A DNA stretch of 1,921 nt from Naegleria gruberi (lineage: Eukaryota). Under the pieces are notes generated by a model. The model made no database searches and had not been told where the DNA came from. It saw nothing but the letters and a program-made list of their open reading frames with translations. The stretch lies in assembly GCA_000004985.1 (NCBI GenBank), contig GG739303.1; one strand, given 5' to 3'. The translations under genes and the position numbers were made by a program. Shown in pieces: positions 31-1,921 of this stretch (positions within the stretch are counted from its first letter, which is position 1; every line of letters begins with the position of its first letter).

Positions 31-120
31 CATTGTTCTTTAGAATTATCAAATGTTTCATTTCCTTTAAATAATTGAGTAATAGTGATTTTTTGAAAAG
101 AATGTGGCATGGTTATTAAA

Positions 121-140: not shown

Positions 141-480
141 CACAAAAAAATGCGCAAGGGGAATAACAACAAGATGATTGCCAATAATGAAAATAATTCT
201 TTTGTCAAACTACCCTACGAAATACATTGTCACTTATTATCATATTGGCGACATTTAAATATTATATTAAATTTTCAATCAATTTGTAAAAAAATTAATG
301 TATTCCAAGTATTGTCATGAAGAAAAGGATTTTTTCAATGAATTTTATTGGAATTTATTTGAAAATTATTTACCAATTAATTATAAATTAAGGAACGAAT
401 TTAATGTGTATAAAAATGAATTGATCAAACAAGGAAAATTAAAAAGAATTGTATTATTAACTTTATATGCTAAATATAAT

Positions 481-538
481 ATGCATAAATTACATGATAA
501 AGAATATAGTATTAAATGTTCTATAATGGGTGGAGTTG
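481..538 (+). CDS. Ras-family small GTPase, exon 1: MHKLHDKEYSIKCSIMGGV + first base of the next Gly codon. ATG at 481-483 sits 7 codons upstream of the Ras-like N-terminal 'KEY'. The exon ends in a GTATGT donor at 539-544.
   Basis: Aligns to the Ras/Rap N-terminus + P-loop 'TEYKLVVVGAGGVGKS'. The reading continues across the intron as GGVG|KTSIVFQ. There is an A at -3 of the ATG. The in-frame ORF upstream (298-480) is K/N/Y/F-rich and looks like junk. Confidence 0.7.
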
Positions 539-578
539 GTATGTTGTACCAAATTTAAATTATTAAATTACAAATTAG
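539..578 (+). other. Spliceosomal intron 1 (40 nt, phase 1), GTATGT...TAG.
   Basis: A canonical GTATGT donor follows the Gly codon. An AG lies at 577-578. Removing it joins g538+gt579-580 = GGT (Gly) and continues 'KTSIVFQ', which matches Ras 'KSALTIQ'. Inference from in-frame homology across the junction. Confidence 0.75.
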
Positions 579-704
579 GTAAAACATCAATTGTGTTTCA
601 ATTTTTTAGAAATATGTTATGCTATGATCTATCATGTGTAGATGATTATGCGAAATATATACTAGTTGATGAAAATACATTTAGAATAGAAATATTTGAT
701 ACAG
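579..704 (+). CDS. Ras-family GTPase, exon 2 (126 nt): (G)KTSIVFQFFRNMLCYDLSCVDDYAKYILVDENTFRIEIFDT + g.
   Basis: Matches Ras '[44 protein letters not shown]'. Switch I is 'YDLSCVDDY' (Ser in the Thr35 position) and the G3 motif begins with 'DT'. The exon ends at a GTTAGT donor (705-710). Reading through the donor hits TAG/TGA stops. Confidence 0.8.
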
Positions 705-760
705 GTTAGTATTTAAATAGTTTACAATTTTTTATTAATTATATTAAATATTGAAAATAG
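705..760 (+). other. Spliceosomal intron 2 (56 nt, phase 1), GTTAGT...AATAG. A second in-frame AG lies 9 nt downstream (768-769).
   Basis: Needed to join 'IFDT' to the '..AEEYSTLR' switch II segment. An in-frame TAG (709-711 in the exon frame) means read-through is not possible. Confidence 0.7.
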
Positions 761-790
761 ATGCGGCAGAGGAATATTCAACATTGAGAG
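761..790 (+). CDS. Ras-family GTPase, exon 3: a 30-nt micro-exon that encodes switch II, (D)AAEEYSTLR + g.
   Basis: With g704 the protein reads 'DT D A A E E Y S T L R', against Ras 'DT A G Q E E Y S A M R'. It is flanked by an AG at 759-760 and a GTAAGT donor at 791-796. Confidence 0.7.
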
Positions 791-832
791 GTAAGTCAAT
801 ATATTTTATTATTATATATCTAATATACATAG
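791..832 (+). other. Spliceosomal intron 3 (42 nt, phase 1), GTAAGT...CATAG, with a CTAAT branch-like motif about 11 nt upstream of the AG.
   Basis: Consensus donor GTAAGT. Removing it joins aga g|at caa = 'R D Q C', against Ras 'MRDQYMR'. The intron is a multiple of 3 long and open, which is why the six-frame track shows one ORF running through it. Confidence 0.8.
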
Positions 833-1047
833 ATCAATGTATTCGATCCAGTAAATGTTTTATACTTGTTTGTGATGTATTTGATTTCAAGTCAATTAAC
901 AGTTTAAAATTTATGATCGAACAAATATTAAATATTAAAGAATCAAATGACATTCCAATTGTATTTACATTAAATAAGATTGATTTAATTAATAATAATA
1001 ATTTGGAGGAAATGGTTGAAAAATTAAAAATGAAATTAATATTAATT
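833..1047 (+). CDS. Ras-family GTPase, exon 4: (D)QCIRSSKCFILVCDVFDFKSINSLKFMIEQILNIKESNDIPIVFTLNKIDLINNNNLEEMVEKLKMKLILI. In this frame it stops at TAA 1048-1050. The true 3' end of the exon is unresolved (see findings).
   Basis: Matches Ras '[53 protein letters not shown]'. The G4 NKxD motif is 'NKID'. A poly-Asn insertion follows. Confidence 0.7.
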
Positions 1048-1265
1048 TAATTGAATATTATCAATTAATAAATACTAAAATAGTAACATCATGTGCTATA
1101 AAAGGAGATGGTGTTGAAAATATATTTGAGGAAGGAATCAGGTTAACAAGATTTGAAAACCAAACTGATTTAAAATTGCTATTTAAAGAAATTATTCAAA
1201 AAGATGTAAAATATTTAAAATCCACAACAACAAATATTAGAGAACATAAATGTTTGACCATGTGA
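1020..1265 (+). CDS. Ras-family GTPase, terminal coding segment in frame 0: KIKNEININLIEYYQLINTKIVTSCAIKGDGVENIFEEGIRLTRFENQTDLKLLFKEIIQKDVKYLKSTTTNIREHKCLTM*. It carries the G5 motif and the CaaX box. The stop is TGA 1263-1265. The real 5' boundary of this segment is unknown and overlaps the frame-1 exon.
   Basis: 'YYQLINTKIVTSCAIKGDGVENIF' matches Ras '[21 protein letters not shown]'. The C-terminus 'CLTM' is a CaaX prenylation box immediately followed by a stop. This frame is open back to TGA 1017-1019. Confidence 0.7.
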   Translation, partial: KIKNEININLIEYYQLINTKIVTSCAIKGDGVENIFEEGIRLTRFENQTDLKLLFKEIIQKDVKYLKSTTTNIREHKCLTM

Positions 1266-1315
1266 AATATTAAATTCACTAATATTAATAATTGGTAAAC
1301 GTCAAAGAGCAATAG

Positions 1316-1334
1316 CTCTTTTATTTTCTTACAG
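1316..1334 (+). promoter_or_regulatory. Polypyrimidine tract + CAG (CTCTTTTATTTTCTTACAG), a candidate 3' splice acceptor 50 nt upstream of the kinase ATG.
   Basis: A pyrimidine-rich run ending in CAG, in otherwise A-rich sequence. Frame 2 is open from 1316 into the kinase ORF. Possible 5'UTR intron acceptor, trans-splice acceptor, or acceptor for an upstream coding exon. Confidence 0.3.
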
Positions 1335-1371
1335 TTTCATTCAAACGAAGGAAATCCATAGGATTCTCAGC

Positions 1372-1377
1372 AATAAA
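1372..1377 (+). promoter_or_regulatory. AATAAA hexamer, a candidate poly(A) signal for the GTPase gene. It ends 7 nt before the kinase ATG.
   Basis: Canonical hexamer 107 nt after the GTPase stop codon. In an AT-rich genome such hexamers arise by chance, so support is weak. Confidence 0.25.
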
Positions 1378-1384
1378 AAAAACA

Positions 1385-1921
1385 ATGAAACGAACTTTGG
1401 ATTCAGTGCTGGACATGGTTGAGTGTAATGAAGATACTCAACAACACCAGCATTCCGAATGTTTGGGAAACATAAACAAGAAGAAACTGCAAGAAGTAAC
1501 AATTCGCAACTTTCCTACTGTTGCAAATATTTACAATATCACATACAAAGTAATGGATTACAACGTGTTTTATGAATCGAGAGGTAAAACTCTTCTATCA
1601 TGCACAATTAATAATGTGGTCTGCATTGTCAAAAGAGTGAAGCAACATGAAGGAGTAAAATCAATTTTGAGTTTATATTTACCTAGTGATAATCCAGATT
1701 ATTGCTTCACACTGAAAGGAACATGTTTGGGAACAATGTTTAGGAATGGGCAAGTTGACCAAATTGACATTTTTCAATTTGTGAAAGATTTACTTGGCAC
1801 ACTTGTATTATTGGAAAGAGGAAATATTACACACAATGATATCAAACCAGATAATATTGTCCTATATGATGGACATTGGTTTCTTATAGATTATGAACTG
1901 TCAAAGTCATTCAAACTGAAA
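1385..1921 (+). CDS. Protein-kinase-like domain protein, 5'-partial (179 codons, open to the window end): MKRTLDSVLDMVECNEDTQQHQHSECLGNINKKKLQEVTIRNFPTVANIYNITYKVMDYNVFYESRGKTLLSCTINNVVCIVKRVKQHEGVKSILSLYLPSDNPDYCFTLKGTCLGTMFRNGQVDQIDIFQFVKDLLGTLVLLERGNITHNDIKPDNIVLYDGHWFLIDYELSKSFKLK...
   Basis: The ORF is open from ATG 1385 to the last base, and 1385-1921 is exactly 179 codons. The catalytic loop 'HNDIKPDNIVL' matches the ePK 'HRDLKPxNILL'. 'LIDYELS' is where DFG would be, 17 residues later, which is correct ePK spacing. The first in-frame stop upstream is TAG 1313-1315, and there is no ATG between it and 1385. Not in the supplied ORF track because it has no stop within the window. Confidence 0.8.
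   Translation, partial: MKRTLDSVLDMVECNEDTQQHQHSECLGNINKKKLQEVTIRNFPTVANIYNITYKVMDYNVFYESRGKTLLSCTINNVVCIVKRVKQHEGVKSILSLYLPSDNPDYCFTLKGTCLGTMFRNGQVDQIDIFQFVKDLLGTLVLLERGNITHNDIKPDNIVLYDGHWFLIDYELSKSFKLK

What the first reader, a model, noticed from the sequence alone, without database searches (positions are those of the whole stretch)
1385..1921. Atypical protein-kinase-like gene: HND catalytic loop, DYE instead of DFG, no glycine-rich loop, compressed N-lobe
The catalytic loop 'HNDIKPDNIVL' keeps the ePK Ser/Thr signature (D..KPxN) but has Asn in place of the HRD Arg. The metal-binding motif 17 residues later is 'IDYELS', not DFG. That resembles 'IDFEY' of choline/aminoglycoside-kinase-like enzymes and 'IDYTLS' of haspin-type kinases more than canonical ePKs. 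Upstream of the catalytic loop there are only about 150 residues from the Met, with no GxGxxG. Candidates for the beta3 Lys (ITYKV or CIVKRVK) and alphaC Glu are ambiguous. That pattern fits either a non-canonical but active kinase or a pseudokinase. It sits beside a probably GTPase-defective Ras-like gene, so the pair looks like non-catalytic or rewired signalling components.
Basis: partly seen in the sequence, partly recalled or inferred. Interest (0 to 1): 0.6.

Follow-up and report, generated by a model that had tools for sequence, protein, structure and literature searches.

The report
Divergent Naegleria protein kinase gene
This is the first half of a gene from the amoeba Naegleria for an unusual protein kinase whose catalytic half is normal but whose ATP-binding half is unrecognisable; it belongs to a small, undescribed family found only in Naegleria and its relatives, which is a modest curiosity rather than a new kind of enzyme.

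Summary
Window 1385-1921 is an open frame of 179 codons cut by the window end. It has HNDIKPDN (aa 150-157), IDYELS (aa 168-173, Asp 17 residues after the catalytic Asp) and no GxGxxG.

A 99%-identical full-length copy (P0002, 333 aa, single exon, Logan contig L001) shows the rest. It has a complete canonical kinase C-lobe (GYRPPE, SPRSDIYSLG, KRPT) and scores 66.8 bits on Pfam Pkinase (cut-off 31.7). APH, choline-kinase and haspin models do not match.

The gene belongs to a small family found only in Heterolobosea (Naegleria gruberi, N. fowleri, N. lovaniensis, Willaertia magna). Members keep H-N-D-x-K-P-x-N and the DFG Asp invariant, usually read D[FY]E, and lack a Gly-rich loop. Their N-lobes match neither Pfam nor a canonical N-lobe profile. 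AlphaFold2 models the C-lobe confidently (pLDDT 85-98) but not the N-lobe, and predicts no αC helix.

Most likely it is a non-RD Ser/Thr kinase with an atypical, shortened nucleotide-binding lobe. A pseudokinase is the serious rival. The neighbouring Ras-like gene looks degraded or unannotated, and nothing links the two functionally. This is a lineage-specific variant of a known superfamily, of modest interest.

The parts
1385..1921 (+). 5' 54% (179 of about 326 codons) of a single-exon gene for a divergent ePK-fold protein. It is cut by the window end, right after the DYE motif.
   Evidence: Translation. It is 99% identical to aa 10-186 of P0002 (333 aa; L001 165-1166). It is 96% identical to N. 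gruberi XP_002674459 / NAEGRDRAFT_70450.
1358..1360 (+). ATA codon where the L001 allele has an in-frame ATG. The window allele therefore starts 9 codons later, at 1385.
   Evidence: Pairwise DNA alignment; L001 sequence.
1487..1549 (+). aa 35-55, LQEVTIRNFPTVANIYNITYK. This is the alternative, weakly supported position for a degenerate Gly-loop (RNFPTV) and beta3 Lys (K55, nt 1547-1549).
   Evidence: MAFFT and hhalign against canonical kinases place ITYKV on VAIK, but at zero confidence. K55 is not consistently conserved in paralogs.
1568..1648 (+). aa 62-88, FYESRGKTLLSCTINNVVCIVKRVKQH. This is the predicted beta-hairpin of the N-lobe, with the best-supported beta3 Lys candidate K83 (nt 1631-1633) in a VAIK-like CIVK.
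   Evidence: The AF2 model with 45 sequences predicts strands at P0002 69-82 and 85-95, pLDDT about 50-60. Five of six paralogs have hydrophobic-hydrophobic-K in this column: YFVK, VYVK, AFCK, SIAK.
1634..1666 (+). aa 84-94, RVKQHEGVKSI. This is the truncated alphaC region: 11 residues between K83 and beta4 (LSLY), against 13-19 in paralogs and 24-33 in canonical kinases.
   Evidence: Family alignments. No helix is predicted here in either AF2 model, and pLDDT is below 50.
1700..1825 (+). aa 106-147: beta5 and hinge (YCFTLKG), alphaD and alphaE (IFQFVKDLLGTLVLLERGN). The confidently modelled, Pfam-matching part of the domain starts here.
   Evidence: The Pfam Pkinase match begins at profile position about 85-88. 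AF2 pLDDT is 85-92 from P0002 residue about 120 onward.
1832..1855 (+). Catalytic loop HNDIKPDN (aa 150-157): catalytic base D152, Ser/Thr-type K154, metal ligand N157, and Asn in place of the HRD Arg (a non-RD kinase).
   Evidence: Sequence. H, N, D, K, P and N are invariant across the Heterolobosean family.
1889..1897 (+). DYE (aa 169-171) in the DFG position. The Mg-binding Asp is kept and the Gly is replaced by Glu.
   Evidence: Sequence. The Asp is invariant. Family members read DYE or DFE, and two N. gruberi paralogs read DYG.
1266..1384 (+). 119-nt spacer between the stop codon of the upstream Ras-like gene and the kinase ATG; presumed promoter and 5' UTR. It contains a 45-nt patch that differs from L001 and a polypyrimidine-CAG at 1318-1334.
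   Evidence: No exon-sized open frame lies here.

Best explanation
The ORF is the N-terminal 54% of a single-exon Naegleria gene. The gene encodes a divergent eukaryotic-type protein kinase domain of a small family restricted to Heterolobosea. Shown: the C-lobe is a complete, canonical ePK C-lobe. The catalytic loop HNDIKPDN and the Mg-binding Asp of DYE lie in the window. PPE(APE), DIYSLG and the subdomain XI Arg lie in the 99%-identical full-length copy. These are exactly the residues that stay invariant across paralogs that are only 25-35% identical. Inferred: the protein is still a Ser/Thr phosphotransferase. D152 acts as catalytic base and K154 contacts the gamma-phosphate. N157 and D169 hold Mg-ATP. 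As a non-RD kinase (Asn for Arg) it would not need activation-loop phosphorylation. ATP would be held by an atypical, shortened N-lobe with no Gly-rich loop. That lobe has a beta-hairpin carrying a VAIK-like Lys (most likely K83 in CIVK) and a vestigial alphaC. The DFG Gly-to-Glu change would stiffen the DFG turn, consistent with a constitutively 'DFG-in' enzyme, as in haspin, which has DYT and is active. The confidence of 0.5 is for the whole statement including catalytic activity; that it is an ePK-fold gene of this Heterolobosean family is about 0.95.
Against: No Gly-rich loop exists in any family member. A profile of canonical N-lobes scores the window's N-terminal 121 aa at 1.4 bits, against 38.3 bits for the positive control P0079. 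The hhalign N-lobe columns have zero confidence. Both AF2 models leave residues 1-76 and 94-108 below pLDDT 50 and predict no alphaC helix. Under the K83 mapping only 11 residues separate the Lys from beta4, too few for a normal alphaC with a Lys-Glu salt bridge. No Lys column is strictly invariant in the family N-lobe. Residue 79 in the hairpin is polymorphic (V in the window, D in L001 and NEG-M), and 3 of the 5 differences from NEG-M fall in this hairpin. No expression or biochemical data exist.
Confidence: 0.5

Rival explanations
1. Pseudokinase or scaffold. The canonical C-lobe is kept as a docking or allosteric module, but the degenerate N-lobe (no Gly-rich loop, vestigial alphaC) no longer binds or positions ATP, so the protein signals without phosphotransfer.
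For: The N-lobe is undetectable by Pfam, by a canonical N-lobe profile and by hhalign. AF2 finds no alphaC and gives low confidence. The alphaC region is progressively shortened among paralogs and is shortest in this gene. The DFG Gly is lost. The N-terminal region varies between alleles: a start-codon shift, a 6-nt indel and V79D.
Against: Pseudokinases normally lose catalytic-loop or DFG residues. Here D, K, N and the DFG Asp are invariant across paralogs of 25-35% identity, which is hard to explain without catalysis or at least nucleotide and metal binding. A VAIK-like Lys is present in most members. The low AF2 confidence may only reflect the shallow alignment (10-45 sequences).
Confidence: 0.33
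2. Small-molecule kinase of the APH/choline-kinase type, or a haspin-type atypical kinase, as suggested by HND...IDxE resembling choline kinase HND...IDFEY and haspin IDYTLS.
For: There is motif-level resemblance only. APH gave a weak hit on the fragment (E=0.17, 12.1 bits, cut-off 23.2).
Against: With the full-length copy no APH, Choline_kinase or Haspin_kinase hit appears even at E<=10. The catalytic loop has the ePK Ser/Thr signature D-x-K-P-x-N. The downstream part has APE(PPE), alphaF DxxSxG and the subdomain XI Arg, which APH and choline kinases lack. All structural neighbours are ePKs.
Confidence: 0.03
3. One Ras-kinase fusion gene (ROCO-like). An intron would remove the Ras-like gene's stop codon and join it to the kinase frame.
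For: A hypothetical GT..AG intron at 1252-1334 would join the two frames in phase, and a polypyrimidine-CAG at 1318-1334 is partly conserved in L001. The upstream gene passes the Pfam Roc cut-off (31.1 against 27), though Ras scores far higher at 71.9 bits. Introns of 40-56 nt occur in the upstream gene.
Against: The in-phase join has a 1-in-3 chance by accident. The donor GTTTGA is unlike the three real donors here (GTATGT, GTTAGT, GTAAGT). There is no COR domain. The upstream ORF ends in a normal stop. Gene callers on L001 and NEG-M start the kinase independently. The Ras-like gene itself has frame breaks.
Confidence: 0.03
4. A non-functional, decaying gene copy (a pseudogene of a paralog).
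For: The neighbouring gene looks degraded. The reference model NAEGRDRAFT_70450 is chimeric and truncated. The upstream ATG is lost in the window allele.
Against: The frame is open over all 179 codons here and all 333 codons in L001. Only 2 substitutions and one in-frame 6-nt indel occur in 531 nt between the two copies, although a 45-nt intergenic patch has diverged beyond recognition. All core motifs are intact.
Confidence: 0.08

Closest known systems
Canonical eukaryotic protein kinases (Pfam PF00069 Pkinase), 'Other' group non-RD Ser/Thr kinases
   Different: Asn replaces the HRD Arg and DYE replaces DFG. There is no Gly-rich loop. The N-lobe is not detectable by sequence and not confidently foldable, and the alphaC segment is very short.
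TTK/Mps1 (best-scoring solved relative of the family profile)
   Same: It is the top PDB hit (59 bits, E=4e-15). It shares a non-RD loop (HSD against HND), LIDFGIA against LIDYELS, PPE, and an almost identical ISPKSD[VI][WY]SLG. It also appeared among the hits for the window fragment alone.
   Different: The margin over PknB (55 bits) and PAKs (53 bits) is small, so orthology is not established. TTK has a normal Gly-rich loop, VAIK Lys553 and alphaC Glu571 (PMC3513839), and a longer insert between PPE and SPKSD.
Haspin
   Same: D-Y-x replaces DFG (haspin DYT), and haspin is a constitutively active kinase that needs no activation-loop phosphorylation (PMC3513839).
   Different: Haspin keeps HRD and lacks a canonical APE/alphaG arrangement. 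The Pfam Haspin_kinase model does not match here.
Lineage-specific divergent ePK families of protists and fungi, such as the apicomplexan FIKK kinases (apicomplexan restriction and demonstrated activity: PMC4576209, PMC3227725; atypical N-terminal lobe: my own recollection, not confirmed in the papers read) and fungal FunK1 / Pfam Pkinase_fungal
   Same: These are small clade-restricted expansions with an ordinary catalytic C-lobe and an idiosyncratic N-terminal part. FIKK members are demonstrably active (PMC4576209).
   Different: There is no sequence membership. Pkinase_fungal scores only 12.6 bits against a 24.1 cut-off, and there is no FIKK motif.
P0079, a canonical HND kinase labelled 'Bacteroidales bacterium' MAG (MCT4640173)
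   Same: It is 36% identical over the C-lobe. It has the same HNDIKPDN and shares the activation-loop motif FDCN..K.RC.
   Different: P0079 has a normal Gly-rich loop (EGGFGRIY), VAVK, an alphaC Glu and DFG. Its N-lobe scores 38 bits on the canonical N-lobe profile against 1.4 bits for the window.

Membership tests
Eukaryotic protein kinase superfamily (Pfam PF00069) | Score above the Pfam gathering threshold (31.7 bits) | tested here: met
   The window fragment alone scores 24.6 bits, below the cut-off, because the ORF is truncated. The 99%-identical full-length copy P0002 scores 66.8 bits, E=2.5e-18.
Eukaryotic protein kinase superfamily (Pfam PF00069) | Catalytic loop [HY]-x-D-x-K-x-x-N with catalytic Asp and Asn | tested here: met
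   HNDIKPDN at aa 150-157; invariant in the family.
Eukaryotic protein kinase superfamily (Pfam PF00069) | DFG motif (Mg-binding Asp plus Gly) | tested here: inconclusive
   Asp169 is present and invariant. Phe to Tyr is a conservative change. Gly is replaced by Glu (DYE). Two paralogs keep DYG.
Eukaryotic protein kinase superfamily (Pfam PF00069) | Gly-rich loop GxGxxG in subdomain I | tested here: not met
   There is no GxGxxG in aa 1-149 or in any family member. The canonical N-lobe profile scores 1.4 bits.
Eukaryotic protein kinase superfamily (Pfam PF00069) | beta3 Lys (VAIK) paired with an alphaC Glu | tested here: inconclusive
   There are two Lys candidates. K83 (CIVK) is favoured by the AF2 hairpin and paralog conservation. 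K55 (ITYKV) is favoured by low-confidence alignment to canonical kinases. No alphaC helix is predicted. E89 or E64 are possible Glu partners only.
Eukaryotic protein kinase superfamily (Pfam PF00069) | APE motif, alphaF Asp (DxWSxG) and subdomain XI Arg | tested here: met
   These lie outside the window. In P0002/L001 they read GYRPPE, SPRSDIYSLG and KRPT.
Eukaryotic protein kinase superfamily (Pfam PF00069) | Bilobal kinase fold | tested here: inconclusive
APH / choline-kinase-like small-molecule kinases (PF01636, PF01633) | Match to the family models; Brenner motif HxDxxxxN plus IDxE without the ePK APE and alphaF-alphaI motifs | tested here: not met
   APH scores 12.1 bits on the fragment (cut-off 23.2). 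Neither APH nor Choline_kinase is listed for the full-length copy at E<=10. The ePK-specific downstream motifs are present.
Haspin kinases (PF12330) | Match to the Haspin_kinase model; the haspin-specific activation segment | tested here: not met
   No hit at E<=10. Haspin is not among the 50-60 structural neighbours listed. Only the D-Y-x tripeptide is shared.
TTK/Mps1 kinases | Clear best reciprocal similarity and a canonical Mps1 N-lobe | tested here: inconclusive
   It is the best PDB hit, but only about 4 bits above PknB. The N-lobe is not alignable. A reciprocal search in a Naegleria proteome is not possible with these tools.
Pseudokinases (operational definition: loss of the VAIK Lys, HRD Asp or DFG Asp) | At least one of the three catalytic residues missing | tested here: inconclusive
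   The HRD Asp (D152) and the DFG Asp (D169) are present. The Lys is ambiguous.
ROCO proteins (Roc-COR-kinase) | Roc GTPase, COR and kinase in one polypeptide | tested here: not met
   A stop codon at 1263-1265 and a 119-nt spacer separate the two ORFs. No COR hit was found. RNA evidence is not available.

The most novel reading that the evidence does not exclude
The family could be a catalytically active ePK lineage that works with a minimal N-lobe, having no Gly-rich loop and essentially no alphaC helix. ATP would then be positioned without the universal Lys-Glu-alphaC switch. The missing function might be supplied by the N-terminal extension, or in the 670-790-aa paralogs by the conserved upstream domain. 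That would make it a natural 'alphaC-less' protein kinase.
Probability: 0.12. Interest if true: 0.65.

Novelty: new variant of a known kind. Interest (0 to 1): 0.3.

Why it matters
If the family is active, it would show how far the nucleotide-binding lobe of a eukaryotic protein kinase can be pared down (no Gly-rich loop, a vestigial alphaC, DFG Gly replaced by Glu) while the catalytic C-lobe stays under strict constraint. That bears on how kinases and pseudokinases are told apart from sequence. The family is restricted to Naegleria and Willaertia, and N. fowleri carries several copies, so it is also a possible lineage-specific marker or drug target. In practice the finding corrects a reference annotation: NAEGRDRAFT_70450 is a truncated, chimeric kinase-PKD gene model. 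Beyond that, it is one more divergent protist kinase family rather than a new principle.

Tried and rejected
1. The word-indexed protein search with the 179-aa fragment found only the N. gruberi model P0001. The exhaustive HMMER search was needed to find the full-length copy and the paralogs. About 85% of its listed top 150 hits matched only the PKD-domain tail of P0001, which I had included in the query profile.

2. Exact-sequence contig look-ups for P0001 and P0150 found nothing. Naegleria reference scaffolds therefore could not be read, and synteny in NEG-M and the origin of the PKD fusion remain unchecked.

3. dN/dS between the window and L001 is uninformative: only 1 synonymous and 1 non-synonymous change in 177 codons.

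4. I tried three ways to place the beta3 Lys, alphaC Glu and Gly-loop: MAFFT with canonical kinases, hhalign, and a family-only alignment. They gave three different mappings. None is significant in the N-lobe.

5. A second AF2 run with 31 canonical kinases added raised C-lobe confidence but did not rescue the N-lobe.

6. Literature searches for the locus tag and for Naegleria kinome or pseudokinase papers found nothing on this family.

7. I recalled that FIKK kinases lack the Gly triad, but the papers I could read did not confirm this. It is used only as a loose analogy.

8. The search for an ortholog of the Ras-like neighbour used a strict cut-off (1e-10) and returned nothing. This excludes a close annotated ortholog but not distant Ras relatives.

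9. Activation-loop cysteines looked like a family signature, but they number 0-3 across members and are not conserved.

10. The F-box-like LPYEIHCHLLSYW at the start of the upstream gene has no Pfam support at E<=0.1.

Full report
**What is in the window.** The window is AT-rich eukaryotic DNA: 16-27% GC up to about position 1300 and 31-36% after it. It holds two same-strand genes.

The finding concerns the second gene. From the ATG at 1385 the frame stays open for 179 codons to the window end. An in-frame stop lies 25 codons upstream of the ATG. The stop codon of the upstream gene (1263-1265) is only 119 nt away.
- HNDIKPDN at aa 150-157 (nt 1832-1855).
- IDYELS at aa 168-173, with D169 17 residues after D152.
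- No GxGxxG anywhere upstream.

**Is it more than chance?** The fragment alone gives Pfam Pkinase E=2e-5. At 24.6 bits it is below the 31.7 cut-off, because only about 65 residues of the domain's C-lobe fall inside the window. A search of solved structures returned only protein kinases among the 60 hits listed.

**Origin and the missing half.**
- The word-indexed protein search found one relative, N. gruberi 'predicted protein' XP_002674459 / NAEGRDRAFT_70450 (P0001). It is 96% identical over aa 57-179.
- That model starts at Met57 of the ORF. After GYRPP it continues into a K319L-like PKD domain. The PKD part resembles another N. gruberi protein, P0003. The model looks chimeric.
- The exhaustive HMMER search found P0002, 333 aa, on the 2,570-nt Logan contig L001 from run ERR1078381. 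Window 1209-1921 aligns to L001 23-722.
- Within the coding part there are only two substitutions (one synonymous, plus V79D) and one in-frame 6-nt indel.
- L001 has an additional in-frame ATG 27 nt upstream, where the window reads ATA.
- In L001 the gene is a single exon, 165-1166. It continues past the window end as ...KRGKYFDCNNGKLRCERFSRGYRPPERINSLIISPRSDIYSLGLVILELL...KSNKRPTP....
- This is a complete ePK C-lobe, with APE (as PPE), the alphaF DxxSxG motif and the subdomain XI Arg.
- P0002 scores 66.8 bits on Pkinase (E=2.5e-18) and 36 bits on PK_Tyr_Ser-Thr. Even at E<=10 the APH, Choline_kinase and Haspin_kinase models are not listed.

**The family.** The exhaustive search and cluster look-ups show a small family found only in Heterolobosea:
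- N. gruberi: NAEGRDRAFT_70450, _62546 (715 aa), _61572 (684 aa), _74296 and a 666-aa protein (P0150).
- N. fowleri: FDP41_006018, _005955, _010563 and _009855.
- N. lovaniensis: C9374_012923 and C9374_000392 (792 aa).
- Willaertia magna: ABK040_014959.

Members are 25-35% identical to the window protein. All have HND[IVL]KPxN, and the Asp sits exactly 17 residues after the catalytic Asp. Most read DFE or DYE; two N. gruberi paralogs read DYG, so DxE is a derived form of DFG. Most also have GY[RL]APE and SPKSDxYSLG.

The invariant columns are D142, L150, H157, N158, D159, K161, P162, N164, I175, D176, S219, D223, S226, G228 and R293 in P0002 numbering. This is the catalytic and structural core expected of an active ePK.

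In every full-length member Pfam matches only profile positions about 82-259, which is the C-lobe. The long paralogs carry a further conserved N-terminal region with no Pfam match.

**The N-lobe.** This is the unusual part.
- A profile built from the N-lobes of 31 canonical kinases scores the window's first 121 residues at 1.4 bits. Other family members score 0 bits or less. The positive control P0079, a canonical HND kinase, scores 38.3 bits.
- hhalign of the family against canonical kinases gives probability 99.9 overall but zero confidence in the N-lobe columns.
- Different aligners give different mappings. With canonical kinases included, ITYKV (K55) falls on VAIK and RNFPTV on the Gly-loop.
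- Family-only alignments instead share a column with CIVK, YFVK, VYVK, AFCK and SIAK in 5 of 6 members. That column corresponds to K83.
- AlphaFold2 with 10 family sequences gave a confident C-lobe and an N-terminal 118 residues below pLDDT 50, all beta.
- With 45 sequences the C-lobe rose to pLDDT 85-98. Only one N-lobe hairpin emerged, at pLDDT about 50-60. It spans P0002 69-82 and 85-95, equal to window 62-75 and 78-88 (FYESRGKTLLSCT and NNV[V/D]CIVKRVK). Strand beta5 was also modelled. No alphaC helix was predicted.
- That hairpin puts K83 on the second strand, agreeing with the family alignment.
- Under this mapping the segment between the Lys and beta4 (LSLY) is 11 residues here. It is 13-19 residues in paralogs and 24-33 in canonical kinases. 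P0203 has the longest, with a plausible helix EISLEIEKTITICKKM.

The family profile's best solved relative is TTK/Mps1 (59 bits, E=4e-15). It shares a non-RD loop (HSD), PPE and an almost identical ISPKSDVWSLG. However, PknB (55 bits) and PAKs (53 bits) are close behind, so an Mps1 origin is only a lead.

**How it most likely works.**
- Shown: an intact, constrained ePK catalytic C-lobe, and a family-wide loss of the Gly-rich loop and of detectable N-lobe similarity.
- Inferred: the strict invariance of the catalytic base, the Ser/Thr-type Lys, the metal-binding Asn and the DFG Asp across 25-35%-identical paralogs argues for retained phosphotransfer or at least nucleotide and metal binding. 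By the usual Lys/Asp/Asp rule it is not a predicted pseudokinase.
- Asn for the HRD Arg makes it a non-RD kinase, a class that generally does not need activation-loop phosphorylation. The mitotic kinases Bub1 (HGD) and Mps1 (HSD) are examples. Haspin shows that a D-Y-x motif is compatible with constitutive activity (PMC3513839).
- I therefore favour an active, constitutively configured Ser/Thr kinase with an atypical ATP-binding lobe (about 0.5).
- The serious rival is a pseudokinase or scaffold (about 0.33). It is supported by the vestigial alphaC, the unmodellable N-lobe and allelic variability in the N-terminal part.
- A small-molecule or haspin-type kinase, a Ras-kinase fusion and a decaying pseudogene are each unlikely, for the reasons given under rivals.

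**Surroundings.** The upstream gene (about 150-1265, + strand) is a Ras-family GTPase: Pfam Ras 71.9 bits and Roc 31.1 bits. It has three short GT-AG introns at 539-578, 705-760 and 791-832. Its P-loop is intact (GGVGKTS) and it has NKID, but switch II reads DTDAAEEY.

It needs two one-base frame corrections at A-runs, near 290 and near 1028, to read through. Its GC content is 16-23%. No protein in the 5.8-billion-sequence database matched it at E<=1e-10. It is therefore either an unannotated, fast-evolving gene affected by homopolymer sequencing errors, or a decaying gene.

Nothing links it functionally to the kinase. A hypothetical intron at 1252-1334 would join the two frames in phase, but that has a 1-in-3 chance by accident and no supporting evidence.

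**Comparison with the known, and novelty.** The protein is a member of the ePK superfamily by Pfam score, C-lobe motifs and fold. It fails or leaves open the N-lobe criteria (Gly-rich loop not met; Lys-Glu pair and bilobal fold inconclusive). It is not a member of the APH/choline-kinase or haspin families.

No paper in the searchable library mentions the locus or describes this family. Databases label members only as 'predicted protein' or 'protein kinase domain-containing protein'. I rate it a new variant of a known kind: a Heterolobosea-specific, non-RD, D[FY]E kinase-like family with a cryptic N-lobe.

Clade-specific divergent kinases are common in protists, so interest is modest (0.3). The one reading that would be surprising is an active kinase that works without an alphaC helix or Gly-rich loop. 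I give that about 12%.

Noticed in passing
window 150-1265 (+): The upstream gene is a Ras-family GTPase (Pfam Ras 71.9 bits, Roc 31.1 bits). It has three short GT-AG introns (539-578, 705-760, 791-832), an intact P-loop and NKID, but DTDAAEEY in place of DTAGQEEY in switch II.
   Followed up: partly
window ~285-297 and ~1026-1031: The Ras-like reading frame breaks by one base at two A-runs (A7 and A5). These are either homopolymer sequencing errors or real frameshifts in a decaying gene. This gene is only 16-23% GC, and no protein matched it at E<=1e-10 in the 5.8-billion-protein database.
   Followed up: partly
window 210-250: The N-terminus of the upstream gene reads LPYEIHCHLLSYW, which looks like an F-box. 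No Pfam F-box hit appeared at E<=0.1.
   Followed up: partly
N. gruberi protein P0001 (XP_002674459, NAEGRDRAFT_70450): The reference gene model starts at Met57 of the ORF. After GYRPP it jumps into a K319L-like PKD domain similar to NAEGRDRAFT_48114. It is probably a chimeric or mis-spliced model.
   Followed up: partly
window 1358-1360, 1412-1417 and 1619-1621 versus L001: Three allelic differences from L001: ATA here against ATG there (an alternative start 9 codons upstream), a 6-nt indel (Asp-Met, codons 10-11), and V79 here against Asp in both L001 and NEG-M.
   Followed up: yes
window 1266-1310 versus L001 80-122: A patch of about 45 nt just after the Ras stop codon cannot be aligned between the two copies, while the flanking sequence is about 99% identical.
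   Followed up: no
window 1252-1334: A polypyrimidine-CAG at 1318-1334 is partly conserved in L001. A hypothetical GT..AG intron at 1252-1334 would join the Ras-like frame in phase to the kinase frame. There is no evidence that it is used.
   Followed up: partly
L001 1-22: The Logan contig begins with Illumina adapter sequence (CTACACGACGCTCTTCCGATCT), which is an assembly artefact. An unspliced intron-like segment at about 2291-2341 suggests the run is genomic DNA.
   Followed up: no
L001 1262-1828 (-) and 2099-2570 (+): Downstream of the kinase gene lie a 188-aa minus-strand ORF with no Pfam hit on record and another plus-strand gene. Neither was analysed.
   Followed up: no
protein P0079 (MCT4640173, 'Bacteroidales bacterium' MAG; JGI/Logan contigs): This canonical kinase has the same HNDIKPDN and the same activation-loop motif FDCN..K.RC as the window family (36% identity over the C-lobe). 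The link to a bacterial-labelled sequence is unexplained; contamination, transfer or convergence are all possible.
   Followed up: partly
proteins P0200, P0203, P0071, P0150 (long paralogs): The 670-790-aa paralogs share a conserved N-terminal region (for example IIREDK...H..DF...MRLALS.AIR.L...D.ES.H...LG.TTD) with no Pfam match. Its function is unknown.
   Followed up: no
protein P0135 (metagenome; JGI/ENA): An unrelated-looking metagenomic kinase-like protein also has a non-RD loop (HSDIKPDN) and IDWELS. The D-x-E replacement of DFG therefore occurs outside this family.
   Followed up: no
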